From a virus (Duplodnaviria > Caudoviricetes), in the IMG/VR virus record IMGVR_UViG_3300036806_000033, positions 1-50,778 of that record: a stretch of 50,778 nt of DNA; one strand, 5' to 3'. The position numbers and the translations under genes were made by a program. A model generated the notes under the pieces. The model searched no databases. It had not been told where the DNA came from and saw nothing but the letters and a program-made list of their open reading frames with translations. Below are positions 5,263 to 38,000 of this stretch, piece by piece. The number at the start of each line of letters is the position of its first letter. Within the stretch, counting starts at the first letter, position 1.

Positions 5263-5411
5263 GACCATCTAGTGTTGATAGCATGCGTCGCTATTTTTGA
5301 TAATTGTTTAGAAGATAAGGCTTCTGCTCTGGCAAATCCACCTTTAGAAGCTCCTAGAGCACCTAAAATTCTACCGTGCTCGCCGAGATTTTCCACTTTG
5401 TATGCCTCCAC
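5205..5411 (-). CDS. Small basic KGG-motif protein, or frameshifted tail of the upstream gene
   Basis: LGASKGGFARAEALSSKQLSKIATHAINTRW matches the KGG.ARA..L....IA..A...RW type of motif; the start codon is weak. Confidence 0.5.
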   Translation of the reverse strand: MEAYKVENLGEHGRILGALGASKGGFARAEALSSKQLSKIATHAINTRWSKRASMPTLNSLKRASITK

Positions 5412-7170
5412 GTGTTCCTAAAGCTACTGCTGCATAATGGTGATCCAGCTTTCTAATTCCTTCACGCCAGGGACGTGCGTGAATGTATTCGCTATCAATA
5501 GTTCTTCCACCTACTACTAATTGCGAAGATATGCCTAAAGCTTTACCTAATCCAGAAGCAGTGCCTACGGCTGAGATAGTAGTAAGAGATAATCCTACTG
5601 CAGCTGCAGTTCCTAAACCAGAAGCTTCAGCTAAAGCTGTTGTCGCTCCTGAAGATATTGCTAAAGCTGTGCCAGTACCACTTGAAGATGCTACTGCGTT
5701 AAATGTAACTGCACCAATACTTGTTGCAGTTCCTGTACCCGAAGATGAAGCTACAGCGTTAAATAGAGCATTTCCAGTACCATCTGCACTACCAACACCT
5801 GAAGCAGAGGCTATACCATTAAAGGTAGCCATGCCTGTGAAAGAAGCTGTGCCTGTACCTGTGGCAGAAGCAACGGAGGCTGCTACACTAGCGCCAATAC
5901 CTGTTGCACTACCTATACCGCTCGCAGAACCTAAAGAAGCTGCTACAGAAGCTCCTATACCGTCTGCTGTACCTGTGCCTGTAGCAGATGCTACTGAACC
6001 TGTAGAAAAAGCAACTCCTAAGGCTGTACCTGTTCCAGAAGCAGAACCAACTGCTACAGCAGTACTTGCACCGATAAATGAAGAACTGCCAACACCAGTG
6101 GCTGAAGCTACAGCTACATTTATTCCAGTTCCTATGAAGGAAGAAGAACCAGTTCCTTGTGCACTACCTACCGAAGCAGCTGTTGAAGCACCAATTCCTG
6201 AGGCTGTACCCGTACCTTGAGAAGCTGCAACTGCATTAAATGTAGCTGCGCCTATTACTGTAGAAGAGCCAATACCTGTGGCAGAAGCTGTTGAAGCAGC
6301 TGTAGAAAGACTTATTCCTGTTGCAGCGCCAGTTCCGGTGGAAGAACCAACTGCTACGTTGATTCCTGTACCTACAACTGTTGAAGAACCAGTACCTGTC
6401 GCTGAAGCTACCGCATTAAAAGTAGATTTACCGACAACAGAAGAAGAACCTGTACCGCTTGCCGCTGCTACTGAGGCTGCTGTAGCAGCACCTATACCTG
6501 TAGCTGTTCCTGTACCACTAGCTGAAGCAACATTACTTGCACCACCCGACATGAGGGTGACGCACCACATCTGGGTATCTGTGGAATTGCACGTTGCCGT
6601 CAGCGTTATAGCTGCGTTGGAGCTCAAAACCTGATGCGCGAATAACGCACCATTCCCATCAACGGTGTCCTGCGTCCAGGGCGAAGACGCTGCCGTGAAT
6701 GTGTTTCCAGCAACACCGAAACCGACCGCCGCCTCCGCTGAGGCGGATAAGGTTCCGGTAGATGCGCTGCTTTTCGGGCTAGTGTTCGTGGCATCGTTAG
6801 TGGCGACGTGTTTGTCGAACACAGCGCCGGTCAGTCCTGCGATCTCCCATATCCCGATATCGGCGTAACCTATAGTTCCGTTGAACGTAGCCGTAATCGT
6901 TTTCGATCCGGTCGTGGGACTTAGAAATCCCTGAACAAAGGCTTTGGTCCCGATGTTCGCATTGGAAACATTTCCGAGACCACAATCGACTGCTGTATCC
7001 CCTTTGTCGGTCGTGATTGTAACGGTCGTTGCTGAGGCGGGATCAAAATAACCAGCGACAGCGATTACAGAACCAGCAGCAATCCCGCTGGGGAACACTG
7101 CAACTATTGTCGTCCCCGTGGTCGGGCTAGTAGTGTTAGCGAATTGTCCAGATACGAATGAGATCGCCAT
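5371..7170 (-). CDS. Gly/Ala/Ser/Thr-rich repeat fibre protein with a globular N-terminal domain
   Basis: Many roughly 18-19 aa repeats of the AVASASGTGTA.G.G type after about residue 210; basic C-terminus. Confidence 0.8.
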   Translation of the reverse strand: MAISFVSGQFANTTSPTTGTTIVAVFPSGIAAGSVIAVAGYFDPASATTVTITTDKGDTAVDCGLGNVSNANIGTKAFVQGFLSPTTGSKTITATFNGTIGYADIGIWEIAGLTGAVFDKHVATNDATNTSPKSSASTGTLSASAEAAVGFGVAGNTFTAASSPWTQDTVDGNGALFAHQVLSSNAAITLTATCNSTDTQMWCVTLMSGGASNVASASGTGTATGIGAATAASVAAASGTGSSSVVGKSTFNAVASATGTGSSTVVGTGINVAVGSSTGTGAATGISLSTAASTASATGIGSSTVIGAATFNAVAASQGTGTASGIGASTAASVGSAQGTGSSSFIGTGINVAVASATGVGSSSFIGASTAVAVGSASGTGTALGVAFSTGSVASATGTGTADGIGASVAASLGSASGIGSATGIGASVAASVASATGTGTASFTGMATFNGIASASGVGSADGTGNALFNAVASSSGTGTATSIGAVTFNAVASSSGTGTALAISSGATTALAEASGLGTAAAVGLSLTTISAVGTASGLGKALGISSQLVVGGRTIDSEYIHARPWREGIRKLDHHYAAVALGTRGGIQSGKSRRAR

Positions 7171-20043: not shown

Positions 20044-20715
20044 ATGCTCAGAGAACTTAGCAACATGATCAACGGCAGAGATATGCCGTCGACGGTTTGG
20101 AATGTGGATGCGTTGGTGAACTCTAAATACACTCCTGACCTTCCTCAACTGTTCACCAAGACGCATTGGTGGGTATTCATGTACGACGACTATCCAGTAG
20201 AGGAGGAAGCTCAACGTGTCGCATTCACGAACGAAGATTATCTCCTCTATCGTAAGAAGGAGAATGATGGACTGGTTGCTCTTGCGGCAACGGAGAAAGA
20301 TTCAACAGCTTTACAACGACCTTCATGGGCTGACCCTATACGTCGTTCAGCAGCGTGGACTTCTGCCCCGGCTACCCGGATCAAAGGCACGATCCATTTA
20401 CTCACTCCGGACCAAGTTATTTCAATTGACAAAGATGTCCAAAACGGAGTAGAGTTTGAACGTAGACGTATTACGCTCCTCATTCCTACCCGGCAGCTGG
20501 TCACGTTTCCTGACCATTGGAAAACGAACGGAGGAAAGAAAATTAAACCCTTTTTCCAGATGTTCGTTCATCAGCTGCAAGCCTGGATATGGGAGGGTAA
20601 TCGCGCACTATTTGATCAGCGGATCAATGGCATTGACTATGAACCCGCTGATATTATCACTCCTGCCTCCCTTTGGATCGGCTCATTTTATACAAAAGAA
20701 AAATGTCGAAGATAG
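20044..20715 (+). CDS. Gamma-glutamylcyclotransferase (GGCT/AIG2)-fold protein, degenerate
   Basis: WVFMYD...IKGTIHLL....VISID....GVEFERRRI...AWIW parallels FVYG...V.GEVY....L..LD..E...Y.R..V...AW.Y; GGAG RBS before 20044. Confidence 0.65.
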   Translation: MLRELSNMINGRDMPSTVWNVDALVNSKYTPDLPQLFTKTHWWVFMYDDYPVEEEAQRVAFTNEDYLLYRKKENDGLVALAATEKDSTALQRPSWADPIRRSAAWTSAPATRIKGTIHLLTPDQVISIDKDVQNGVEFERRRITLLIPTRQLVTFPDHWKTNGGKKIKPFFQMFVHQLQAWIWEGNRALFDQRINGIDYEPADIITPASLWIGSFYTKEKCRR

Positions 20716-22262
20716 TAGAACTCCACAAGCCGTGTCCCAGTCCTAACTGCTCTAGCAGTAATGCGTATTGCAAATGGGATGACGGACACGGCTACTGTTT
20801 CTCCTGCCATTCATTCTTCAAACCAAATGGTGATAGGAGCAACGATCCACAATACACTTACGAGTACCTTCCATGGCGTGGAGTCACCAAAGAGAGCTTC
20901 GAATTCTATGGTGTTAAAACTAAGATAGCACCTAATGGTGAACCTCTGGCGATTGGTTTTCCTTATCCAAATAGCAGTGTCAAACATCGCTACTTAGATA
21001 AGAAAGACTTTCGCTGGTCTGGTGATGTCCAGCCAGGGTTGTTTGGTATGAATAAGTTCACTCCAGGCGCCTCCAAATACATCACCATCACAGAAGGAGA
21101 GTTAGATGCTATCTCACTCAGACAAGCCTTACTTGACGGAAGAGGATTTGGTGGAACCCAAACGCCCCAGTCGTCTACGACGGATTTTCACGTCGTCTCC
21201 GTCTCTTCTGCTTCTAGCGCAGTTAGGGATTGTACTAGTGCTCGATCCTGGCTTGACCAATACGAGCGCATACTTCTCTGCTTTGATGAGGACGCCGTCG
21301 GGCTTGCTGCTGCAAGACGTGTCGCGACGCTCTTTGATAGTCGTAAAGTCTACCATGTGCGTCTTGGACACCGAAAAGATGCCAATGACTTTCTGCAGGT
21401 AGGTGATCCTGCTGCACTCAAAGAGTTATGGTGGAAAGCAAAGAAGTTCATGCTTGACACCATAACCTCCACCTTCGCAGAAATGCGAGCATGTCTGTTT
21501 ACTCCTGATCCACCATCTATTCCTTTTCCGTGGCAGTCATGGAATAACTCCCTGTATGGCTTACGCCAAGGAGAGAGTTATTTGATTACTGCGTTAGAAG
21601 GAGTTGGAAAGACTGAAGTGATGCACCACCTTGAGCATCACCTGCTTAAGGAGACAGATGCCAATGTCGGATCAATCTTCCTCGAAGAGCCTACTAAAGA
21701 TCATTACAAAGCTATCGCCCGGCTGGAATTACGGCAGCCTGTACATCTCCCGAACAGCGGTGTGGACCGCATTGCAATCGCCGAAGCTGTGGAAAAAGTT
21801 ACTCGGAGGGATGAGCGTCTGTTCGTTCATACTCATCATGGGTCAGACAATCCAGATACTATTCTCGACACCATTCGGTTTCTCGTTACTTCGTGTGACT
21901 GCAAGTATATTCTTTTGGACCACATTGGGATGGCTTGTGTTGGACTCGAAGGAGACTCCGAACGAATAGCGTTAGATTATATGTCCAATCGTTTACAAAT
22001 GATGGTTGTAGAACTAGGTTTTTGTTTAATTGTTGCTAGCCATGTTAACGATTTTGGTGAAACTAGAGGCAGTCGAATGATTGCTAAAGTTGCTAACAAT
22101 CGTATCAACCTGTTTCGTGATGTGAAAAATGGAGAAACTTTCACTCATGTTCACGTTGCAAAAAACCGGTTTGGAAGCAAGACCGGACCACTTCTAGACC
22201 TTTGCTTCAATCTTTCAACCTTCTCTTACACGGAATATCAAGAAAGCCTAAACAATGGTTAA
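20703..22262 (+). CDS. T7 gp4-like DNA primase-helicase
   Basis: Zn finger CP..NC...CFSC, TOPRIM ITEGELDA/CFDED/KDAND, Walker A EGVGKT, ILLDH, KNRFG. Confidence 0.95.
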   Translation: MSKIVELHKPCPSPNCSSSNAYCKWDDGHGYCFSCHSFFKPNGDRSNDPQYTYEYLPWRGVTKESFEFYGVKTKIAPNGEPLAIGFPYPNSSVKHRYLDKKDFRWSGDVQPGLFGMNKFTPGASKYITITEGELDAISLRQALLDGRGFGGTQTPQSSTTDFHVVSVSSASSAVRDCTSARSWLDQYERILLCFDEDAVGLAAARRVATLFDSRKVYHVRLGHRKDANDFLQVGDPAALKELWWKAKKFMLDTITSTFAEMRACLFTPDPPSIPFPWQSWNNSLYGLRQGESYLITALEGVGKTEVMHHLEHHLLKETDANVGSIFLEEPTKDHYKAIARLELRQPVHLPNSGVDRIAIAEAVEKVTRRDERLFVHTHHGSDNPDTILDTIRFLVTSCDCKYILLDHIGMACVGLEGDSERIALDYMSNRLQMMVVELGFCLIVASHVNDFGETRGSRMIAKVANNRINLFRDVKNGETFTHVHVAKNRFGSKTGPLLDLCFNLSTFSYTEYQESLNNG

Positions 22263-23079: not shown

Positions 23080-25062
23080 ATGCGATTAATAATTGACGTT
23101 GAGGCAAACTCTCTTGACAATCCTACTAAGATATGGTGCATTGTAACGAAAGACCTGGACACAGGAGTCGTCGATGTTTATCGCAATCTTACTGAGGATG
23201 CAAACGAGGCTGCTAGGTTCAAAGCCGTCTGGGATCAAAGACCTATTCTTATTGGCCATAATGTACTTGGTTGGGACTTTGATAATCTTGGGCGTTTGCT
23301 TAACCTTAATCTCGACGATATTGATGATCGCACGATTGATACACTGATACTTTCAAAATTGGTGGACTATCCGCGTGATGGCCACAGCATTGAAAGTTAC
23401 GGTGTTGAGTTCGGCTTTGAGAAGTTGGCATTCACCGACTTCTCTAAGCTGAGCGAAGAAATGGTGACCTATTGCACGCGGGACGTTGAAATATCCGAGA
23501 AGATATTTCTGAAGTATCGTAAGGTAATCAACGATCCCCGGTGGAAGCAATCCATACTCACTGAACATCAATTTCAGTGGCGTGCAGTTAACGCTATGAA
23601 GAGGAATGGATTTGCATTTAATACAGAAAAATGTAAAAAACTTCTTGACAAAGTCACAAAAGAGTTAGAAATTCTCGATGAACAAATCAATAAATTTCCA
23701 CCTATCTGGAAACTTCTAAGCATTGTTACACCTAAAGCTACGAAGTTTGGAACTATTGCTCAAAATTCTCTTCCCAAAATTTGGAGAAGCAGAACATGCG
23801 AATTAACAGTTGGTGTACCATTCGAACATGGTGAATGGATCAAATTCAACCCATCATCTGTTAAGCAAGTAGTAGACCTTCTATGGCAGGCTGGTTGGAA
23901 ACCAGAAGATCGCACTAAGACTGCTATTCTCACTGAGCGTGAGTTAGGGAAACTAGAACGCGACAAATCCAAAGACCAGTCTGCCATAGATCTTCTTAAA
24001 AAAAAGCAAGAGAAATTCAAGAAATATGGTTGGAAGATTAATGAAAATAATCTCCATACTTTACCGAATACTGCCCCTGAGGCAGCGAGAACTCTAGCAC
24101 GTAGAATTCTCGTCGAATCCAGACGCCGAACCCTAACGGAATGGCTCAACCTCGTTAAGGAAACAGGACGTATCCACAGTCAGTTCCAAGGGATCGGCGC
24201 CTGGACCCATCGCATGGCTCATCAGAAGCCAAACATGGCGAACATACCGAACCATTTAGATACTCAAAAAAGAGTTCGGTACTTGGGCGCTGAAATGCGG
24301 TCACTGTTTATATCCCCACGAAAAAGGCTGCTCGTCGGTGTAGATGCTGCGGCAATCCAGCTGCGCATCTTCGCCCATTACATCGACGATGCAGCCTTTA
24401 CTAAAGCCCTTGTTGAAGGTAAAAAGGAGAATAAAAGTGACCCACATTCTCTTAACAAAAACACCCTTGGCAGAGTTTGTAGATCAAGAGATGCAGCTAA
24501 GCGGTACATTTTTGCCTTGTTATTGGGAGCGGGATCCGGTAAGCTTGCCGAGATATTGGAATGTTCAGCTGAAGAAGCGGATGCCGCTCTTCAGAACATT
24601 ATGGAGCGATATACCGGGTTCACTTTTCTTAAACAGTCTACAATACCGGCCGATGCCAAGAGAGGGTGGTTCTATGGTCTTGACGGTCGAAAAGTTAGGA
24701 TACCTGGAGACACCATCAGCGAGAGACGGCACCTTGCTATGTCTGGGTATCTACAAAATGGTGAAGCGGTTATCATGAAGATGGCAACTCTTCTTTGGAT
24801 CAAGTATCTCGAAGAAGAGTTTGCTAAACCAGAGTGGAAAGACATAGACCACAACTGGCTTCTAGTGAATTTAGTTCATGATGAATGGCAAACTGAATGT
24901 GACTATTACATGGATGTTGCACTAAAAATTGCGGAACTGCAAGATAAAGCTTTACAAGACGTTGGTAATATGTTACACCTTAAGTGTCCTTTAGCAGGAA
25001 GCTATCGAGATGAGGATCGTAACGATTACACTATCGGCACGAACTGGAAATTAACACACTAG
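23080..25062 (+). CDS. polA: Family A DNA polymerase with 3'-5' exonuclease (T7 gp5-like)
   Basis: ExoI DVEAN, ExoII GHNVLGWD, ExoIII YCTRD; motif A VGVDAAAIQLR; motif B RDAAKRYIFALLLG; motif C VHDEWQ. Confidence 0.96.
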   Translation: MRLIIDVEANSLDNPTKIWCIVTKDLDTGVVDVYRNLTEDANEAARFKAVWDQRPILIGHNVLGWDFDNLGRLLNLNLDDIDDRTIDTLILSKLVDYPRDGHSIESYGVEFGFEKLAFTDFSKLSEEMVTYCTRDVEISEKIFLKYRKVINDPRWKQSILTEHQFQWRAVNAMKRNGFAFNTEKCKKLLDKVTKELEILDEQINKFPPIWKLLSIVTPKATKFGTIAQNSLPKIWRSRTCELTVGVPFEHGEWIKFNPSSVKQVVDLLWQAGWKPEDRTKTAILTERELGKLERDKSKDQSAIDLLKKKQEKFKKYGWKINENNLHTLPNTAPEAARTLARRILVESRRRTLTEWLNLVKETGRIHSQFQGIGAWTHRMAHQKPNMANIPNHLDTQKRVRYLGAEMRSLFISPRKRLLVGVDAAAIQLRIFAHYIDDAAFTKALVEGKKENKSDPHSLNKNTLGRVCRSRDAAKRYIFALLLGAGSGKLAEILECSAEEADAALQNIMERYTGFTFLKQSTIPADAKRGWFYGLDGRKVRIPGDTISERRHLAMSGYLQNGEAVIMKMATLLWIKYLEEEFAKPEWKDIDHNWLLVNLVHDEWQTECDYYMDVALKIAELQDKALQDVGNMLHLKCPLAGSYRDEDRNDYTIGTNWKLTH

Positions 25063-25084
25063 TGTTTCGAAATTAAATTAATTT

Positions 25085-25561
25085 ATGGCTACTAAACAAA
25101 TATATTTAAGCGGTAAATGTAGATATTGTCACATTCACGCTCCTGACAGATTTGGCCACTGGTCAACTATGCTTTACTTAGATGATAAATCTAAAACTAT
25201 CTGGCAACAGTTAAAAGAAGAAGGCATTCAAAACCGTATGAAAACGGATCAAGATGGGGCATTCGTAACACTACGGTGTCCTATCGAAAAGAAGATACGT
25301 GGAACAATGACCAAGATGAACCCAATCCTTGCGATTAAGGATCAAGTTCCTTATATCGGAATGATTGGTGATGGTTCAGATATCACGTGTATGGTTACGG
25401 TATATGACTACCGTAAACCGATCACCAACGAGGCAGGTAAAGCAATTAGATTGTCGGCTATTAAAATAAACAATTTAGTTGAACCTACCTTAAAAGCCTT
25501 ACCTCAAGCGGGTCAAGAGCAGGCTGCGGCGTTGATCGGTCAAGCTGACCCAATCTGGTGA
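25085..25561 (+). CDS. Probable ssDNA-binding protein (T7 gp2.5-like OB fold)
   Basis: Follows the polymerase; GK..Y..I..PD..G.W...L, IGDGS.....V.VY, IRLSAI.I.NLVE. Confidence 0.7.
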   Translation: MATKQIYLSGKCRYCHIHAPDRFGHWSTMLYLDDKSKTIWQQLKEEGIQNRMKTDQDGAFVTLRCPIEKKIRGTMTKMNPILAIKDQVPYIGMIGDGSDITCMVTVYDYRKPITNEAGKAIRLSAIKINNLVEPTLKALPQAGQEQAAALIGQADPIW

Positions 25562-25565
25562 GACT

Positions 25566-25826
25566 ATGGAGTATTATTATAAACTCTATAGGCCAGAATA
25601 TATCACTGTAACAATCAGTGATCCAAAGGAGAGTACCATGAGTAAAACCTACGAGACTGTAAAGTGGCGTGTCGCATATAACGAGTTTGACACGTTCGAA
25701 GAAGCTAAGACTGACGCTGACAAGCGAGCTCTGAAAGATTGGGAAGATGTCCCTGTCTGGAAGACCGTTGGTGTGGCAAGGTCTGCCTTCGCGCCTACCG
25801 CAGTTACCTGGACTGACCTCCAGTAA
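25566..25826 (+). CDS. Hypothetical protein (strong internal start at 25638)
   Basis: AAGGAG RBS before MSKTYETVKW. Confidence 0.7.
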   Translation: MEYYYKLYRPEYITVTISDPKESTMSKTYETVKWRVAYNEFDTFEEAKTDADKRALKDWEDVPVWKTVGVARSAFAPTAVTWTDLQ

Positions 25827-25863
25827 CACCGTGGCTTGTTGGTAAAAGTAACCCTCTGTAAAT

Positions 25864-25901
25864 CGAAAGGGCATTAGCGAAAGTTAGTGCCCTTTCGTTT
25901 T
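25864..25901 (+). terminator. Rho-independent terminator
   Basis: CGAAAGGGCATTAGC-GAAA-GTTAGTGCCCTTTCG followed by TTTT. Confidence 0.85.
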
Positions 25902-25916
25902 CCAAAGGAGGAAGGA

Positions 25917-26126
25917 ATGCACGATGATGTCAGATATTACAAACGAGTCTCAGTCTGTGAAAAGGTGGCCATTCAAAAGATGGTCAGCGCAGGAAGAGGA
26001 AGACGGAGACGTGTCAAGACAGTCTTCAAATGGCAGTGTAGACCATCTATTCGCATGATCAATGAGGGTGAGTACCCAATCATGAATGAAATTCAGAAGA
26101 TCTCATATAAATTGACGATCTTCTAA
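25917..26126 (+). CDS. Small basic protein (69 aa)
   Basis: AAGGAGG RBS before ATG 25917; Arg-rich. Confidence 0.6.
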   Translation: MHDDVRYYKRVSVCEKVAIQKMVSAGRGRRRRVKTVFKWQCRPSIRMINEGEYPIMNEIQKISYKLTIF

Positions 26127-26802
26127 CGAAGTAACCCCGGTAGTCCTGGCAGTATTTGTGTGCTTTTATGCACTGGCCCTGATGACTGGCGCCAGCCTAA
26201 GTCGTCCTAGGCAAAGGAGTGTAGTTGTAGCTGGATGCGCTCTATACGCACAAGGACGCCGGGGTTACACTAATTCAGTTTAGGAACTGCGAAGACTGGT
26301 GAGCATTCAGCCACCGACTAGTGGTTACCTAATCCCGAGAATACCTTCACGACTATGTTAGCCAGATCACGGTCACGGTATCAGCCAGTTGTGATGCCCG
26401 CTGTCCAGTGTTGTCCAATGTAGTGCTGAGTGCGAAGATTTCTCGGCCTACCGAACCCATGGGTACGTATTAAGACCTAGATCGGCACGCGTATGTATGG
26501 CTGAAGTAGGGTGCACTCATCTGAGTGTGATGTAGGGGTGCGATCCCGCCCGTCTTGTATCCCGTGCGGTACGATGGAGGCTAAAAAGTAACTGCATTCG
26601 GGAATAGGAAAGGCCTGCTCTCCGCAGGCTATGGCAAACAGTGAGGACGTGCAGCAGGTGTTCAAAAGACAAGCCAGATAGACGTGAAAGGCGGTGAATG
26701 CCTCTAGTCAATGTGATCCTGGTAACTAGTCTTAGTAATCTTCCTAGATTTTGACAGATACAGGGCCGATTGTGCAGTTAGCCCTGCCCGTTTGGAAACG
26801 GC

Positions 26803-26871
26803 TGTCTTAATCATGCAGGTTCGATCCCTGCCAGTGGTGTGTAACCGCTGTGGCGTAAAAAGTCGGGGACA
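26803..26871 (+). ncRNA. Circularly permuted tRNA-like module (YrlA/Y-RNA-like order: T arm, closed acceptor stem, D-like arm)
   Basis: GCAGG-TTCGATC-CCTGC, then CAGTGGT-gtgta-ACCGCTG, then TGGCGTAA; closed by TGTCTT/GGGACA. Confidence 0.6.
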
Positions 26872-27280
26872 AGTTTGTGGTGATCCAAACACTGGCTAGT
26901 TTGGCCCCCCTAGGCAACCGTAAGGAAGATAGCATCGGCAATAAAAGTTCAAACATGAACAGGAGATCATCCCAGTCGACTGAAAACTGTCCCATGGTGA
27001 ATGGATTACAGAAAGATTGTCGACGACTCACCTTAGTAATGGATGAATGAACAAGACAAGCACGGACAAGTAAGGGTTATCCCTCGGAAATCTCATCTTC
27101 ATGAGATACCTAAGATGCTAAAAGAGCAACAGTCCATACTCGACACGGTGCCCGAAAAGGCCTTTCACCAAGAGGATTTATCCCCACCACATTAAGTGGA
27201 GTGGACTAACGTCCGCTTTAATATTGTGGACATGGATGTGCAGCTTTCATCGGGGCAGGAGACTGCTCAAACCCTGGACA

Positions 27281-27374
27281 CGCGCTAAGGGCTGAAACGA
27301 TGTTAAGTGCTCTCCTCAGTCAGTAGACCTGTTAAAAGGTTAAGGTATTGTAGGTTCGAACCCTACCAGCGCGA
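27281..27374 (+). tRNA. Non-canonical tRNA-like element (possibly Asn-derived), no encoded CCA
   Basis: Acceptor CGCGCT/AGCGCG, T arm GTAGG-TTCGAAC-CCTAC, oversized D arm, GACCT-gttaaa-AGGTT anticodon-like arm. Confidence 0.55.
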
Positions 27375-28272
27375 ATGCTGATCGCTGACTTAGTATGTGA
27401 GATGGCTCGATCTAGCAACATCTAGGGAGCTTGGGTGAAACCAAGTGTCATTCAGTCTGAATAACTGAATGTTGTGGGAGTGATGAACCATCCGTGGCTT
27501 ATGACTGATCTGCTGTAGGATAATGCTCTAGTTAAATGCTTCGTAATTGGACGATGTCATGAACTGGAAAGCAAGCCCTGAAACAAACTTTGGTGTATAA
27601 TAACGTTCCTCAGGTGGAATAGGAAAACCAAAGCAAAAGTACCAATACCCCGTTAACTCCGCAGTGAAGTGAAGAACTAGCTGATGGGGATAAGAGGCTC
27701 CAGTAGCGTAAGTAGTCTGCCAAGAAAGCTGATCCCAATGTACATGATCAGTGACGGTGATGCGTTTGTACCACCCCATCTGCTACGAATAGAGGAGCAG
27801 TATAAAAGGTGTGGGAGCTAAATGTGAGATACCGTGTAGGCACGAAACGTGAAAGATAGGCCCTCCTTTACGGGCTGACTTAACCAAAGGAAGAAAATAA
27901 AGATGCCTGAGATGACATAGGAGCCATTCTAGCGGCTATTCACCTTCATCTTTAGCATAATAAAACTTCCTCGCGACTCCAAAGCACGCCAGATTAGCGT
28001 ACACTAGGAGCTAGAAGCGTGTCAGAAGTATTCAGGCTGGTAGTTTCCCAGTTCTGTCGAAAATGGCATTGGTAGCGAGAACGTTAAGTCTCGCTAAATT
28101 CCTCAAACGGAAGGAGATGAAAATGGGCATCACTCTGGACATGCGAGATGAGATAACTGTTAAACAACCTTGGAGCACGGGTCCGCCTTAAGATGCTGCG
28201 CGCGTAGAACATGCCGCAGCGGGGGAGGAGGCTTAACAGCCACTCCCCCCACATTCATAGGAGACTGTCGAC

Positions 28273-28581
28273 ATGAACCAACCAATCATCATAGTTCCTG
28301 GGGGACAAGGCGGGGGATACAACAATCACCCTCGTCCACCGAGACGAAGGAAGAACAGAGCTGACAAAAAAGCTGACTCTGAAAAAGAAAAGAAAAAAAA
28401 GGAAGCTGAAACTAAAAAACAGTTGCGTTTGCGTATATTTTATGCTATAAGCATTTTTGTTCTCCCACTATTCGGCATTTCTGCCGCATTCGTTCTCCTC
28501 GCCGTTGGATTAGGTGCAGTTAAACTCACAGAGATTTCTGCATATCTCCTACGACTCATAGTTAATCAATCAGCACATTGA
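28273..28581 (+). CDS. Membrane protein with a basic N-terminus
   Basis: AGGAG RBS; K/R-rich stretch followed by a long hydrophobic segment. Confidence 0.7.
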   Translation: MNQPIIIVPGGQGGGYNNHPRPPRRRKNRADKKADSEKEKKKKEAETKKQLRLRIFYAISIFVLPLFGISAAFVLLAVGLGAVKLTEISAYLLRLIVNQSAH

Positions 28582-29534
28582 AAACAATACATACTCTAAT
28601 ACCCGACATTTACAAGATCGTTAACACGAACTGGATGACGGATGAACTAGCCAACATACTGGCTAGGGACATCGCCAGTCGACTAGGGACCGGTAGGCAG
28701 GCGCGAAGGGCTCTGCGCCTTTCTGAACTCAGGCCTAGATGTCCCAAAGCCTTATGGCACAGTGTCCATACTCCTGAACTCGCAGCGCCGCTCCCGCCGT
28801 GGGTTCATATAAAGTTGATGTATGGACACATTCTTGAAGCCCTTGTCTTAACGCTAGCTAGAGCCGCTGGACATAAGGTTGAAGGAGAACAAGATGAATT
28901 GGTCTGCTGTGGGGTCGTGGGTCATCGGGACGCTGTTATTGATGGCTGCGTGGTCGATGTTAAGTCTTCTAGCGTTCTGGCTCTGGACAAGCTCAAAACT
29001 GGGTCCATTGAGCAGAACGACGGGTTTGGTTATCTTGATCAGCTTGACGCTTATATTGGCGGGAGTGCAACTGACTCACTTACAACCGTGAAAGATAAAG
29101 GCTATCTATTGGGCATTGGTAAAGAATTAGGACATTTAGCATTACATGAACACAAGTACAGAGCCAGTCATATTGAAGAAAGAATTCGGGATTATCAAAG
29201 GATTATTGCTCTCCCTGAACCGCCGAATTGCGAATGTGGAACTGAAGCTTTCACAAATGGAAACACGAAGCTTGATACCAGAGCAAGTTACGATGAAATG
29301 CGCTACGTCTGCTGGCCAAAACTTAGAACCTTTATCTACGCCAAAGGTCCAGTCTACCTGACCAACGTAGTTAAAGCACCTAAAGACGTCCCGGAGCTTG
29401 ACAAACACGGGAGGATATGTTATAATGGGCTGTATAATGTTACGTGGCCGATGCAAATGTCTGAACCCGTGGCAGGAGTGCAAGCACATTCATCCTCTTC
29501 AGCGTCATCCCAAACCGGAAGACTACTACAATGA
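28578..29534 (+). CDS. PD-(D/E)XK (Cas4/RecB-like) phage exonuclease
   Basis: LRLS....C...LW, GHILE, GHRDAVIDG.VVDVKS, Y..QL.AY. Confidence 0.88.
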   Translation: MKTIHTLIPDIYKIVNTNWMTDELANILARDIASRLGTGRQARRALRLSELRPRCPKALWHSVHTPELAAPLPPWVHIKLMYGHILEALVLTLARAAGHKVEGEQDELVCCGVVGHRDAVIDGCVVDVKSSSVLALDKLKTGSIEQNDGFGYLDQLDAYIGGSATDSLTTVKDKGYLLGIGKELGHLALHEHKYRASHIEERIRDYQRIIALPEPPNCECGTEAFTNGNTKLDTRASYDEMRYVCWPKLRTFIYAKGPVYLTNVVKAPKDVPELDKHGRICYNGLYNVTWPMQMSEPVAGVQAHSSSSASSQTGRLLQ

Positions 29535-29578
29535 GTTGCCCAATATCGACTATGTGCTAACAATAATACAAAACGCCG

Positions 29579-30130
29579 ATGGGGCAACTTCGCAATTCTT
29601 TCGAGAAAAAGACACTCGAACATTTAGAACAAAAATCTATCCATGTTGAATACGAGACAGAAAAGTTTGATTATGTCGTCTACGGCACTTACTGGTCAGA
29701 CTTTAAAATTCACCGAGTTCTTCAAGAACCATTATATGTTGAAACCAAAGGTTACCTAAGACCTGAAGATAAAATCAAACTTAGGGCAGTTAAGATCACT
29801 CATCCGGAATTAGACCTGCGTATACTGTTTTATGCCTACAAAAAGAAAGATACCCGTTGGGCAGACAAGTATCAGTTTAAATACGCGATCGGTACAATTC
29901 CAGATGAATGGTTAAAGGATGCAGAACATGTCACTCAAAATGGTGATTGCAGTCCGTCAAGACATTCAAATGAACAAAGGCAAGACAGCTGCACAAGTAG
30001 CCCACGCCGCAGTCGGTTGCCTCGCAGACGTAAAAACAAGACATCCAATCGTAGATCGTTGGTTATCCACAGGAGAAGCAAAGATCGTGGTCAAAGCAAC
30101 AGACTTGCAACAAATATACGATCTGGCTGA
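29579..30130 (+). CDS. T7 endonuclease I-like Holliday junction resolvase with a C-terminal run-on into pth2
   Basis: RNSFE...YE...Y.SDF...YVETKG...D..K...HPELDLR..F...WA.K..F.YA...IP.EWL. Confidence 0.88.
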   Translation: MGQLRNSFEKKTLEHLEQKSIHVEYETEKFDYVVYGTYWSDFKIHRVLQEPLYVETKGYLRPEDKIKLRAVKITHPELDLRILFYAYKKKDTRWADKYQFKYAIGTIPDEWLKDAEHVTQNGDCSPSRHSNEQRQDSCTSSPRRSRLPRRRKNKTSNRRSLVIHRRSKDRGQSNRLATNIRSG

Positions 30131-30278
30131 TCTTTGTCAGGCTCAAGGTTTAATGTACAACACTGTAACAGATAGTGGTAAAACTGTCTTTCATCAACCA
30201 ACAGTAACGTGTATCGCAATTGGTCCTGATACCGTTGAACAAGTTGACTTAGTGACCAAAGGACTCAAACTCCTATGA
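29928..30278 (+). CDS. pth2: Peptidyl-tRNA hydrolase, PTH2 family
   Basis: KMVIAVR.D..M.KGK.AAQ.AHA ... KIVVK ... DSGKT...PTVTCIAIGP...VD.VT.GLKLL; AAGGA RBS before 29928. Confidence 0.93.
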   Translation: MSLKMVIAVRQDIQMNKGKTAAQVAHAAVGCLADVKTRHPIVDRWLSTGEAKIVVKATDLQQIYDLADLCQAQGLMYNTVTDSGKTVFHQPTVTCIAIGPDTVEQVDLVTKGLKLL

Positions 30279-35064: not shown

Positions 35065-38000
35065 TTACTTCTTCATATTTTTCATTATATCATTGTAGAT
35101 ATTGTTCATACGATATCTATCTTCAGGATCAACATTCTGTATCCAGTAATTCCAAAGTTCACGCTCAGGTAATGTTCTACCTGACAACGCAGCATTCCAT
35201 GCTTGTGAATACTTTTCTTCTGGATAACCAGCAATCTTTAAGGCAGCTTTAGCATTGTTAAAAAAGACATTAGCTTGTTGTGGATCTTTATTCTTAATAG
35301 CATCTTGAGCTCTATGAACATTTTTAATAAAGTCATTCAAACCATGTTTCTGTAATTCTTCTCGCTGATCCTTAAGTCTATTCAAACTTTGTGTATCAAT
35401 AATTTTTGGTTGAAGACCAGTCGCAGACATAAAAATAGCATCCATTACAGAAGTATTATTCTTTAATGGAGTTTCATTCTTTGACATCCACACACCAGTG
35501 TTTACTGCCATATCTGTACGCCAAAGATTGTTTACTTCTGCGAAGGATTTAAATGGTTGTATAAAATCAGCTGAAGTCATACCATATTGTTTATCTGGTC
35601 CTCTAAAGAAATTACCTACCCATTTCCAATAACCATCCATACCTTCCCAAGCTCCGCTCACAAGTGAACCTGAAGCTCCTGCATATGTTTCTAACACAGT
35701 TTTATCTTTAGCAAAGAAATCTCTAATAACATCTAGACCTGGATTACCATATCTTTCAGGTAAGTTATAAGTATTTCCTGTAACTAATTTTAAGAAAGCT
35801 GAAGGTAATCCTTCATTAACCAAAGATGCTACCGATAACTCATCTGGATTATACCCAGCCTTCTGAATAGAATCTTTCCAAGAGTCTCCAAAATAAGAAA
35901 CACCACTAATACCAGCAGCTACAGGTAATCCATAAGCAGCCCAATAAGTTCCAAACAATCTAATTTTCTGCGGAGGAGTCAAACGATGACCTAATGCAAG
36001 TTCAGTAAGACGCATAGAATAACCAAGGAACTGCGTGGGAAAAGACAACACACCTCTTTGTAAGCCAGACTTAGAAGCTAAAGTCATATTACCAGCAAGA
36101 TCATCAGCACGCTGAAGAACTTTAGCTCTGGCTAATTCATCAAATCTGCCTACAGGGTTTGCATCACGCCATTCTTTGAAAGACGTATACCACGCTCCGT
36201 AACGTCCCATACGTTCACCTTCTTTAAAGGGTAAGTCACCCATCTCAAGAAAGGAACGTCCGGCTGATCTAAATATACCGTCTGCTTTAGTGTACCCATA
36301 CATGGAATTAGTTTCGTTTGAAACATAATCAAATCCAGTTCCTTTAATAGCGTTGTTAGCTTCTAGGAATTCACCAGGTTTCCAACCAAATGCTTGAAGC
36401 TTACGATCCATTGTACGAAGAATAGCTGGATCTTTATTAAACCTAGACCAAGTATGCATCAAGGCAGCTGAACCGCCTTGTGCTGCTTTACCCCAACCAG
36501 CTACACCTGCTATAGTCACAAAAGTATTAGCTTGCACAAAGAACTGTGGAAGACTGAACATACCTAAACCAGCTTTAAAGGCCATATAACGTAAGAATGA
36601 AGGACCATCTTTAATTGCTGTCACACCCCATTTACCTATGGTAGCTGCAGCATATTTCTTATTCCAACCTCCTGCTCCATAGATGTCATCCATGAAACGA
36701 TCCTGCATCGCTGCAAGAGTAGTATCCCATACTGAAGGAGTACCATTAAACTGTTTAATCATCCAACGTTCTGCTTCTATCTGTGAAGCTTTAGTCTTGG
36801 CAACACCACTCTTAATCTTCGATTCCATAAAATGATAAAACGGTGCTGACATAAGATCAGGTTCACCAAGACCACTTACATCTAAATGTTCTAAATTACG
36901 TCTAATCCAATTCTCCATAGAAGAGATCTTAACATCATCCATAAACATCGAATTAGTTATGCGAGATAATGCACGATTCATACTCGTGATAGGATCCATC
37001 GGCTGTGCTGGATCATAGCTATATTGAGGATTATAACGAGTACCTTTATTATTCATCTCCATGACTTCATAGGCATCACGTTGTCCAGTAAACTCTATTT
37101 GAAACTGTCGTGCCGGAGATCCAAATCTAGTACCATCTCTAAAGTTAAAATCTTTATATTTCTGAGCCAAAGAATTATCCATGTCGATAATTCGCTTATC
37201 TTTAGGAACTACTCTAAAGTCTTCAGTTAGATTAAACCTAGGACGAATCTTTTCTCCTCCAGGTCCTCTCTTTTCTTCAAACCAACTCTTAAGTTCTTTC
37301 CAACTAATAGGTAATTGTTTAGCTGCTAATTCAGCTTCTGCATCTCTTTTATTTAATAAATGATTTCTTACTTCATTCATAATCTTAGAAAGATCTTCAC
37401 CCATCAATCGATTTTGAAGAAGCATAGCTGTCGCATCACCTTCATACCAATGGTAAGTAGTATCACCCACAGTATTCCTACGAATGTCTGCTTGCTTCAT
37501 ATACCAAGGATGTTCATATAAAAGATGAAAACCAGGAAGACGAGGTATCTGATCAAATGAAAGTGGACGTGTTTCTACATTCTTAGTTATAATATACTGA
37601 GGACGTTGAGTCTCAATACCACTAAATCCATTCAAAGGATCTTCATGAGTCCGCCAAATCTTAACTAACTTATACTGACCAGTTTGAAGTTTTGGTATAA
37701 TTTCATTACCAATAGCTGATCTCGCAAAAGTATCTGCCTTCTGAATCTTTAATTCTTCAGCATGTTCACCAGTATAAGCAATTACTGCATCACCAGGTAT
37801 ACTCAATCGTGCAGTAGATCTTTTTCCAGGACTTACTGCGACTGTATACGTTCTACCACTCTCTCCTGTAAACGTCCTAGTTTCAAAAGGAATGTTATGA
37901 GCAGTTGTTAAAGTACGTTCAACCCTAGAATCAACAGGAGCAGCAGGAAGTTCTCCAGCTGCACGTTGAGTAATTATCTCACCTTCAGGTTTAATAACTG

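What the first reader, a model, noticed from the sequence alone, without database searches (positions are those of the whole stretch)
26277..26750. ncRNA domain B: about 475-nt RNA with three nested long-range helices and a pseudoknot
Nested pairings: AGTTTAGGAA (26277-86)/TTCCTAGATT (26741-50); GACTAG..TTACC (26316-29)/GGTAACTAGTC (26721-31); TTCACG-A-CTAT (26346-56)/ATAG-A-CGTGAA (26678-88); then TGGCT/AGCCA, GTCTT/AAGAC, CTGCA/TGCAG and GCCTGC/GCAGGC. The loop of the GGTG/CACC hairpin (GCATTCA, 26303-09) is complementary to TGAATGC (26695-701), which crosses the second helix. The size and topology are in the range of large ribozymes, but RNase P and group I signature sequences are absent. 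Inference: candidate new large RNA class.
Basis: partly seen in the sequence, partly recalled or inferred. Interest (0 to 1): 0.8.

Follow-up and report, generated by a model that had tools for sequence, protein, structure and literature searches.

The report
Conserved phage RNA, differently folded
This stretch is the front part of a 2-kb gene-free, conserved and probably structured RNA region in an uncultured soil phage, but it folds as a row of local hairpins and not as the three nested long-range helices and pseudoknot that were proposed.

Summary
As a fold they fail. Helices of that size arise by chance: 58 of 100 dinucleotide shuffles hold a stack of at least 10 bp. In the only reachable homologue (L002, a second soil phage), 30 of the 63 proposed pairs vary: 20 break and 1 is compensated.

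The region is nevertheless real. 26276-28264 is a conserved block without codon periodicity or frame-preserving indels. It matches no Rfam family, ROOL and GOLLD included.

Domain B folds alike in both phages. Local modules P1-P4 are followed by a nearly invariant core of about 180 nt. Compensatory pairs are about twice as frequent as in coding controls.

Only two distinct genomes exist, so the detailed fold and the function stay open. The scan noted this locus before: e1-3748626 on a near-identical copy, and e1-6293368 on L002's genome.

Verdict: probably a new large phage RNA, with the topology wrongly drawn.

The parts
26276..28264 (+). Conserved gene-free block; domain B is its first quarter
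   Evidence: One blastn alignment to L002:11399-13401, 65.5% identity over 2123 columns. Mismatches by codon position 204/209/197, and 10 of 39 indels are multiples of 3.
26280..26332 (+). P1, extended hairpin (TTAGG/CCTAA, ACTGC/GTGGT, apical GGTG/CACC)
   Evidence: Same shape in both phages, z -3.0 and -3.5. 15 consensus pairs, 4 compensatory, none broken.
26335..26446 (+). P2 domain, closed by CCGAGAA/TTCTCGG, enclosing the invariant blocks 26363-26416
   Evidence: Closed alike in both phages; L002's outer stem is 16 bp. 28 consensus pairs, 3 compensatory, 5 changed on one side.
26447..26510 (+). P3, long irregular hairpin (CCTAC/GTAGG, CCAT/ATGG, CGT/ACG)
   Evidence: 14 pairs, 7 compensatory, 100% paired; 3 of 500 shuffles reach this; slid partners pair at 21-43%.
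26513..26528 (+). P4 hairpin GCACTC/GAGTGT
   Evidence: L002 has a different 7-bp hairpin at the same place. z -2.5 and -3.0; p 0.97-0.98 in all three contexts folded.
26532..26712 (+). Nearly invariant core (about 90% identity; 66 nt with one change at 26641-26706)
   Evidence: Alignments. Its open frames change frame between the two genomes.
26536..26551 (+). P5 hairpin GGGTG/CGCCC (invariant)
   Evidence: No variation, so untested.
26566..26595 (+). P6c helix GCGGTAC/GT(A)ACTGC with a conserved 15-nt loop holding GGAGG
   Evidence: 7 pairs: 1 compensatory (A-U to G-C) and 1 changed on one side (G-U to G-C).
26612..26630 (+).
   Evidence: p 0.99-1.0. In L002: 1 compensatory pair, one inserted base pair and the same loop. 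The loop could pair with GGAGG at 26576-80 in both phages; this is inferred.
26726..26747 (+). P8 small hairpin CTAG/CTAG
   Evidence: U-A becomes G-C in L002 (columns 501-504 with 519-522).
26815..26831 (+). First tRNA T-arm look-alike downstream (context, not part of domain B)
   Evidence: GCAGG-TTCGATC-CCTGC. Such hairpins occur in the same gap in 8 of 9 sequences from all four clades, with differing stems. ARAGORN and Rfam do not call a tRNA.
27350..27366 (+). Second T-arm look-alike (context)
   Evidence: GTAGG/CCTAC here, GGAGG/CCTCC in L002.

Best explanation
Domain B is not a self-closed 475-nt RNA. It is the 5' quarter of a roughly 2.0-kb conserved, non-coding, plus-strand RNA locus (26276-28264). 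The locus sits in the replication gene cluster of a complete 50.8-kb soil phage, between DNA polymerase A and a Cas4-like exonuclease.

Fold: four independently folding stem-loop modules in a row, P1 26280-26332, P2 26335-26446, P3 26447-26510 and P4 26513-26528. They are followed by a nearly invariant core of about 180 nt (26532-26712) that holds hairpins P5, P6 and P7.

Shown: non-coding conservation, equal local folds in two phages, compensatory changes, and no membership in any Rfam family.

Inferred:
- It is transcribed with the flanking plus-strand genes.
- The two downstream tRNA-arm look-alikes draw host tRNA-processing enzymes that cut the precursor, releasing a stable RNA of about 0.5 kb that carries domain B.
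- The invariant core is the working site, binding a host or phage factor.
- The target is most likely in translation or tRNA metabolism, given the tRNA mimics and a PTH2 peptidyl-tRNA hydrolase gene 1.6 kb downstream.

In lifestyle it resembles GOLLD and ROOL RNAs.
For: - Context: the window is a whole virus record with terminal repeats. The neighbours are primase-helicase, DNA polymerase A, a Cas4-like exonuclease and endonuclease I.
- No ORF of 100 aa or more lies in 25875-28272; alternative codes give no plus-strand frame across the region.
- Non-coding conservation with L002: mismatches 204/209/197 by codon position, against a third-position excess in pol (126/63/260), exo and primase. 10 of 39 indels are multiples of 3, against 11 of 12 in the coding controls. 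Identical runs reach 33 nt.
- The five modules fold into the same shapes in both phages, z -1.6 to -4.7.
- Consensus folds of the four segments give 80 pairs, 15 of them compensatory. P3 has 7 of 14, and 3 of 500 shuffles reach that.
- Hand-curated set: 56 pairs, 42 unchanged, 3 changed on one side, 11 compensatory, 0 broken.
- Blind test on domains defined from the window's own MFE: compensatory pairs are 52 of 235 in the RNA block (17 of 91 in domain B) against 43 of 653 in pol, primase and exo. Domains with 3 or more: 9 of 25 against 5 of 57, Fisher p 0.0045.
- G-U pairs in P1, P5, P6c and P7, and the T-loop motif, fit the plus strand only. Strand z-scores are -2.25 (plus) and -1.04 (minus).
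- G+C is 0.51 here against 0.38-0.45 in most flanking windows.
- T-arm hairpins with differing stems lie in the same gap in all four clades of this phage family.
Against: - Only two distinct genomes carry it, so no statistically sound covariation test (R-scape type) is possible.
- The consensus folds were derived from the same alignments on which the pairs were counted.
- Generic tests do not separate it from coding DNA. Column-shuffle alifold z averages -2.7 here and -3.1 in the polymerase gene. Alifold on 500-column windows finds 13-19 'compensatory' pairs here and 4-16 in coding controls. L002 segments mapped from window domains fold with mean z -2.07 here and -2.35 in pol.
- The core is invariant, so its fold is untested and several rival pairings exist.
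- No consensus promoter or terminator delimits the RNA.
- The three other clades of the phage family share no sequence with domain B.
Confidence: 0.6

Rival explanations
1. One reading: a closed 475-nt RNA (26277-26750) held by three nested long-range helices, with a pseudoknot between the GGTG/CACC hairpin loop and 26695-701. It would be a ribozyme-sized new class.
For: All strands are complementary in the window. H1 is in the MFE of the excised 474 nt, with p 0.93. With a shifted alignment, L002 can form a TTTACG/CGTGAA version of H3a. One pair of H2a is compensated.
Against: - In L002, 20 of the 30 varying pairs break and 1 is compensated. H2a keeps 3 of 6 pairs, H3a 2 of 6, H6 3 of 5, and the pseudoknot 5 of 7 with two central mismatches.
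- The 3' strands are invariant, while the 5' strands change without compensation.
- H1 drops to p 0.01-0.02 with flanks; the other helices stay at or below 0.16.
- Helices of this size are expected by chance.
- The 5' strands of H1, H2, H3 and H4 are used by P1, P2 and P3, which carry compensatory changes.
Confidence: 0.04
2. The locus is not one large RNA but a string of separate small stable RNAs or processing intermediates. Domain B itself would hold several units (P1, P2, P3-P4, core) with unrelated roles.
For: The modules fold independently and abut one another. No long-range helix is supported. T-arm look-alikes could serve as cutting signals. Other clades have only about 1-1.5 kb here and no counterpart of domain B.
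Against: Conservation is continuous from 26276 to 28264 with no spacer-like breaks at module borders. No internal promoters or terminators were found. There are no data on RNA ends.
Confidence: 0.15
3. The conservation acts at the DNA or mRNA-leader level: a replication origin, protein-binding sites, or a long regulatory leader for the exonuclease operon. Stable RNA structure would play no functional part.
For: The locus lies inside the replication module. The invariant 66-nt stretch shows no covariation. Generic structure tests do not beat coding controls.
Against: No direct repeats or iterons. G+C is higher, not lower, than in the flanks. Compensatory changes are enriched about twofold over coding controls. 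Strand-specific G-U pairs and T-loop motifs are present. Two kilobases is far beyond known origins or leaders (this last point is recalled, not tested).
Confidence: 0.13
4. It encodes one or more small proteins, or is a decayed gene.
For: Small frames exist (41-83 aa). L002 has a 155-aa minus-strand frame over its core.
Against: Mismatches show no codon periodicity, and 29 of 39 indels shift the frame. The window's longest open frames match L002 only in pieces that change frame. A decayed gene would not keep identical runs of up to 33 nt.
Confidence: 0.02

Closest known systems
GOLLD RNA (Rfam RF02032)
   Same: A large phage or prophage non-coding RNA of unknown function, often near tRNA genes. 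tRNAs sometimes sit inside its linker, and its 3' part is more conserved than its 5' part (passages of PMC12286853 read). Here too there is a large gene-free phage RNA block with tRNA-arm look-alikes inside it, and a variable 5' part before an invariant core.
   Different: No match to the GOLLD model at E<=10 anywhere in the genome. The embedded elements are not callable tRNAs. The block is about 2 kb, whereas GOLLD is described as often exceeding 800 nt. Multimer formation is unknown.
ROOL RNA (Rfam RF03087)
   Same: A large ornate RNA of phages and prophages near tRNA islands, with no known protein partner (passages of PMC12286853).
   Different: No match to the 574-position ROOL model at E<=10. 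The tool's control genomes gave no hit either, so this test is weaker; the full Rfam scans also gave nothing. Sequence and fold are unrelated.
Small stable RNAs co-transcribed with the tRNA cluster of phage T4 (recalled, no call)
   Same: Non-coding RNAs that are made from one precursor with tRNA-shaped elements and released by host tRNA-processing enzymes. This is the processing route inferred here.
   Different: Those RNAs are about 120-140 nt and lie among true tRNAs. Here the units are far larger, and the tRNA-shaped elements are not callable tRNAs.
Bacterial Y RNAs (YrlA) with a tRNA-like module (PMC4201824; seen only in the listing)
   Same: A non-coding RNA that carries a tRNA mimic with a T-arm. 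This was suggested by note e1-6299278 for the element at 26803-26871, next to domain B.
   Different: Y RNAs are small, and no Ro60 gene was seen among the proteins scanned (not all ORFs were scanned). Domain B itself has no tRNA-like part.

Membership tests
GOLLD (RF02032) | Match to the family covariance model | tested here: not met
   0 matches at E<=10 in the whole 50,778-nt genome. Nothing in the Rfam scans.
GOLLD (RF02032) | Phage or prophage location next to or around tRNA genes | tested here: inconclusive
   The phage location is met. Only T-arm look-alikes are present; there are 0 tRNA genes by ARAGORN and no tRNA model hit at E<=10.
ROOL (RF03087) | Match to the family covariance model | tested here: not met
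   0 matches at E<=10. The tool's control genomes also gave none, so sensitivity is unproven. Searches agree.
RNase P RNA, group I and group II introns, known self-cleaving ribozymes | Match to any Rfam model of these classes | tested here: not met
   cmscan of 25800-28600 at E<=10 gave 5 weak hits, none to these classes. At gathering scores there were 0 hits in the whole window.
Structured non-coding RNA (general) | Conserved without coding signature | tested here: met
   (flat mismatch phase, frame-shifting indels, frames not preserved).
Structured non-coding RNA (general) | Statistically significant covariation over many homologues | tested here: inconclusive
   Two genomes only. There is enrichment over coding controls (9 of 25 against 5 of 57 domains with 3 or more compensatory pairs, p 0.0045), but generic z-score tests do not discriminate.
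Structured non-coding RNA (general) | Expressed as a stable RNA | not testable with these tools
   No RNA run is listed among the 4 holders.
   Of 30 varying pairs, 20 are broken and 1 is compensatory.

The most novel reading that the evidence does not exclude
The invariant core of about 180 nt in domain B is the active centre of a new class of giant (about 2 kb) phage RNA. The RNA carries its own tRNA mimics and, like GOLLD and ROOL, works as an RNA-only machine or assembly acting on the host translation or tRNA apparatus. The conserved GGAGG loop (26576-80) and TCTCC loop (26619-23) would form a tertiary or intermolecular contact.
Probability: 0.15. Interest if true: 0.8.

Novelty: new variant of a known kind. 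Interest (0 to 1): 0.5.

Why it matters
Large structured RNAs of phages (GOLLD, ROOL) are few and their function is still unknown. A third, unrelated and larger example would widen the class. It sits in a soil podophage family whose nearest cultured relatives infect alphaproteobacteria, it is built around tRNA mimics, and a peptidyl-tRNA hydrolase gene lies close by. That points the search for function towards translation.

For the scan, the practical lesson is that long-range helices read off a single sequence are unreliable. Here the single homologue was enough to replace them with a different, testable fold.

Tried and rejected
- Homologue hunting by nucleotide search: blastn against 50,697 phage records gave no match. 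A profile (nhmmer) search of loci L002-L020 gave, at E<=10, only the L002/L012 locus and 6 weak chance hits with E 0.94-6.9.
- Homologue hunting by pattern scan: ten exact-pattern scans (viral contigs; metagenome contigs; genome contigs) returned only L002's contig, an identical copy of the window in a MAG (L058), and chance hits. This was checked by blastn and by eye.
- The DNA polymerase search gave 9 loci, of which only L002 carries the RNA.
- The exonuclease search listed closer relatives in Logan assemblies (P0002-P0007, 69-79% identity).
- Sequencing runs: 4 soil DNA holders and no RNA holder listed. Laid contigs gave one variant letter in domain B (26532 G>A, in an unpaired linker in both models), which is uninformative.
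- Shared 9- to 11-mers with the three other clades: one 9-mer and nothing longer.
- Structure-aware MAFFT modes are not installed.
- An all-against-all listing of matching stacks was too noisy to use.
- My first coordinates for two candidate long-range pairings between invariant blocks were wrong (the rows LR1 and LR2 there are void). These pairings remain untestable because neither side varies.
- Column-shuffle z-scores (-3.35; 18 compensatory pairs against 9.6 +/- 2.6) looked good, until coding controls gave the same values. I do not count them as support.
- RF01998 was a wrongly recalled accession (it is a group II intron piece); its one sub-threshold hit at 35529-35600 is irrelevant.
- No covariance model was built. 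With two sequences and an invariant core it would add little to the profile search.
- Supplementary tables of PMC10690425 were not seen. They might list a short motif from this region, although that survey required three or more regions and its motifs average 67 nt.
- Searches for print on this RNA: searches found nothing on a 2-kb RNA in such phages.

Full report
WHAT THE WINDOW IS. The window is a whole IMG/VR virus record of 50,778 bp with 127-nt direct terminal repeats, rated 100% complete. Near-identical contigs occur in four soil metagenome runs. The plus-strand cluster around the finding encodes a primase-helicase (20673-22262), DNA polymerase A (23080-25062), three small proteins, a 102-aa protein (28273-28581), a Cas4-like exonuclease (28578-29534), endonuclease I (29579-30130) and a PTH2 peptidyl-tRNA hydrolase (29919-30278). 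Between 26127 and 28272 no frame reaches 90 aa, and 25875-28272 holds no ORF of 100 aa. The nearest cultured phages are podophages of alphaproteobacteria, with under 40% exonuclease identity.

THE OBSERVATION. The set is not beyond chance. 58 of 100 dinucleotide shuffles of the 474 nt contain a stack of at least 10 bp with at most two G-U, like H1. Perfect runs of 7 or more number 7, against 4.3 +/- 1.8. Folding the excised 474 nt gives -160.1 kcal/mol, z -2.25 (minus strand -1.04), and keeps H1 but not H2 or H3 as drawn. H2-H6 and the pseudoknot stay at or below 0.16. Only the local hairpins GCCTGC/GCAGGC and GCACTC/GAGTGT are robust, at 0.97-1.0.

THE HOMOLOGUE. A DNA polymerase search of IMG/VR gave nine related loci. 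Only L002 (polymerase 77% identical, a 51,265-bp contig) aligns with the gap: L002:11399-13401 against 26276-28264, 65.5% identity over 2123 columns. Perfect blocks of up to 33 nt sit between stretches of about 40-50% identity. The 150 nt upstream ('domain A') are not conserved. Ten pattern scans of three collections found no third genome. L058, a contig binned into a MAG, is an identical copy. Closer relatives exist in Logan assemblies but could not be fetched.

The model has 63 pairs, of which 33 never vary. Of the 30 that vary, 9 keep pairing through a change on one side, 1 is compensated and 20 break. Per helix in L002: H1 8 of 10, H2a 3 of 6, H2b 3 of 5, H3a 2 of 6, H3b 3 of 4, H4 4 of 5, H5 5 of 5 (invariant), H6 3 of 5, pseudoknot 5 of 7. 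The 3' strands lie in invariant blocks, while the 5' strands drift freely. A shifted alignment lets L002 form a TTTACG/CGTGAA version of H3a, so H3a is not fully excluded, but it crosses P2.

WHAT FOLDS INSTEAD. Five segments fold into the same shapes in both phages.
- P1 26280-26332: z -3.0 and -3.5.
- P2 26335-26446: z -1.9 and -3.8. L002's outer stem is 16 bp.
- P3 26447-26510: z -1.6 and -1.8.
- P4 26513-26528: z -2.5 and -3.0. The hairpin is replaced wholesale in L002.
- P7 26612-26630: z -3.7 and -4.7.

Consensus folds of the segments give: P1, 15 pairs with 4 compensatory; P2, 28 pairs with 3 compensatory and 5 changed on one side; P3, 14 pairs with 7 compensatory; P5-P6, 23 pairs with 1 compensatory and 2 changed on one side. 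For P3, 3 of 500 shuffles reach the observed values, and for P1, 22 of 500. Slid partners pair at 21-48%. A hand-curated set of 56 pairs has 42 unchanged, 3 changed on one side, 11 compensatory and 0 broken.

The substitutions in H1's strands at 26282 and 26284 are matched by 26330 and 26328 in P1, and 26746 is matched by 26727 in a small 3' hairpin. The conserved P6c loop (GGAGG) and P7 loop (TCTCC) could pair in both phages, with one G-U to A-U change. This loop contact is an inference.

CONTROLS, FOR AND AGAINST. Generic tests do not separate the block from coding DNA. The column-shuffle z averages -2.7 here and -3.1 in the polymerase gene. Alifold on 500-column windows gives 13-19 compensatory pairs here and 4-16 in coding controls. 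L002 segments mapped from window-defined domains fold with mean z -2.07 here, -2.35 in pol, -1.52 in primase and -0.30 in exo. I therefore drop my early z of -3.35 as support.

A blind domain-level test does discriminate. Domains were taken from the window's MFE alone, then each was aligned and folded with its L002 counterpart. Compensatory pairs are 52 of 235 in the RNA block (17 of 91 in domain B) against 43 of 653 in coding controls. The share of mismatch columns lying in such pairs is 0.25 (0.31 in domain B) against 0.12 (Mann-Whitney p 0.006). Domains with three or more such pairs number 9 of 25 against 5 of 57 (Fisher p 0.0045). With two sequences this is suggestive, not proof.

NON-CODING. 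Mismatches fall evenly on the three phases (204/209/197; domain B 50/43/43). The phases in pol are 126/63/260, in exo 66/27/102 and in primase 105/63/220. Ten of 39 indels are multiples of three, against 11 of 12 in the coding controls. The window's longest open frames match L002 only in pieces that change frame. Table 4 and TAG=Q open no plus-strand frame across the region. There are no direct repeats. G+C is raised, at 0.51.

KNOWN FAMILIES. Rfam gives no hit at gathering scores in the window or in eight related loci, apart from three ordinary tRNAs elsewhere in those loci. At E<=10 over 25800-28600 there are five weak hits; four are chance hits and the fifth overlies the terminator-like hairpin at 25864-25900. 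ROOL and GOLLD models give nothing at E<=10. ARAGORN finds no tRNA. The published survey of structured RNAs in IMG/VR required three or more regions, and its motifs average 67 nt (passages), so it would not have caught this locus.

HOW IT PROBABLY WORKS. All four clades of this phage family keep a gap of about 1 to 2 kb at this place. In 8 of the 9 sequences it holds one to three T-arm look-alikes whose stems differ (GCAGG, GTAGG/GGAGG, GTTGG, GCTGG, ACTGG, GATGG, GAAGG), which speaks for an RNA-level role on the plus strand. Domain B has no counterpart in the other three clades. It looks like a clade-specific elaboration upstream of the first tRNA mimic.

I infer co-transcription with the replication genes, since no consensus promoter or terminator lies inside. 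I also infer cutting at the tRNA mimics by host tRNA enzymes, and a working site in the invariant core. The tRNA mimics and the PTH2 gene point to translation. None of these steps is shown. GOLLD and ROOL, which are phage RNAs near tRNAs and in GOLLD's case sometimes enclose them, are the nearest analogues, but membership is excluded.

EARLIER NOTES OF THE SCAN. e1-3748626 is on a near-identical copy of this phage: it shares 152 of 180 words, and its 2146 letters equal 26127-28272. Its follow-up reached the same locus-level reading. e1-6293368 is on L002's genome: its coordinates 36837-52 and 36736-51 map to L002:11462-77 and 11563-78, the 16-bp outer stem of P2. These notes are not independent evidence.

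VERDICT.

Noticed in passing
window 29919-30278: A PTH2-type peptidyl-tRNA hydrolase gene (Pfam PF01981, E 1.5e-34). Its frame overlaps the end of the endonuclease I frame (29579-30130) by about 210 nt, and the endonuclease domain itself ends near residue 118-122.
   Followed up: partly
window 26815-26831 and 27350-27366; L002-L010 in the same gap: T-arm look-alike hairpins (5-bp stem, GGTTCRA loop start) occur one to three times in the gap between the p158 homologue and the exonuclease, in 8 of 9 sequences spanning all four clades (L005's single motif has no matching 3' strand). The stems differ between clades. Neither ARAGORN nor Rfam calls any of them a tRNA.
   Followed up: partly
The soil variant in run X4 carries three substitutions and a 1-nt deletion at 26220-26226.
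   Followed up: partly
window 23409-23454, 23880-24430 and 20949-21014: Segments inside the polymerase and primase genes fold with very negative z-scores in both phages (-5 to -7; column-shuffle z down to -8.8). This is as strong as anything in the RNA block. They may be mRNA structures or an artefact of the shuffles.
   Followed up: no
L058 (genome contigs): A 50,792-bp contig filed in a MAG labelled Rhabdochlamydiaceae is 100% identical to the window over the 4,600 bases compared (25001-29600). It is most likely a phage contig swept into a bin, and says nothing about the host.
   Followed up: partly
window 25864-25900: A terminator-like hairpin followed by a T run lies between the 86-aa and 79-aa genes. 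It was picked up as a weak partial hit to an unrelated sRNA model.
   Followed up: no
window 5371-7170 (minus-strand 599-aa ORF): Eight to ten copies of a degenerate repeat with 60-nt periodicity lie inside the ORF, suggesting a repetitive fibre-like structural protein. There was no PHROG hit.
   Followed up: no
L002 13390-13880: Between the RNA block and the p102 homologue, L002 carries two extra small ORFs, each preceded by a copy of the same hairpin-plus-RBS block that ends the RNA region in the window.
   Followed up: no
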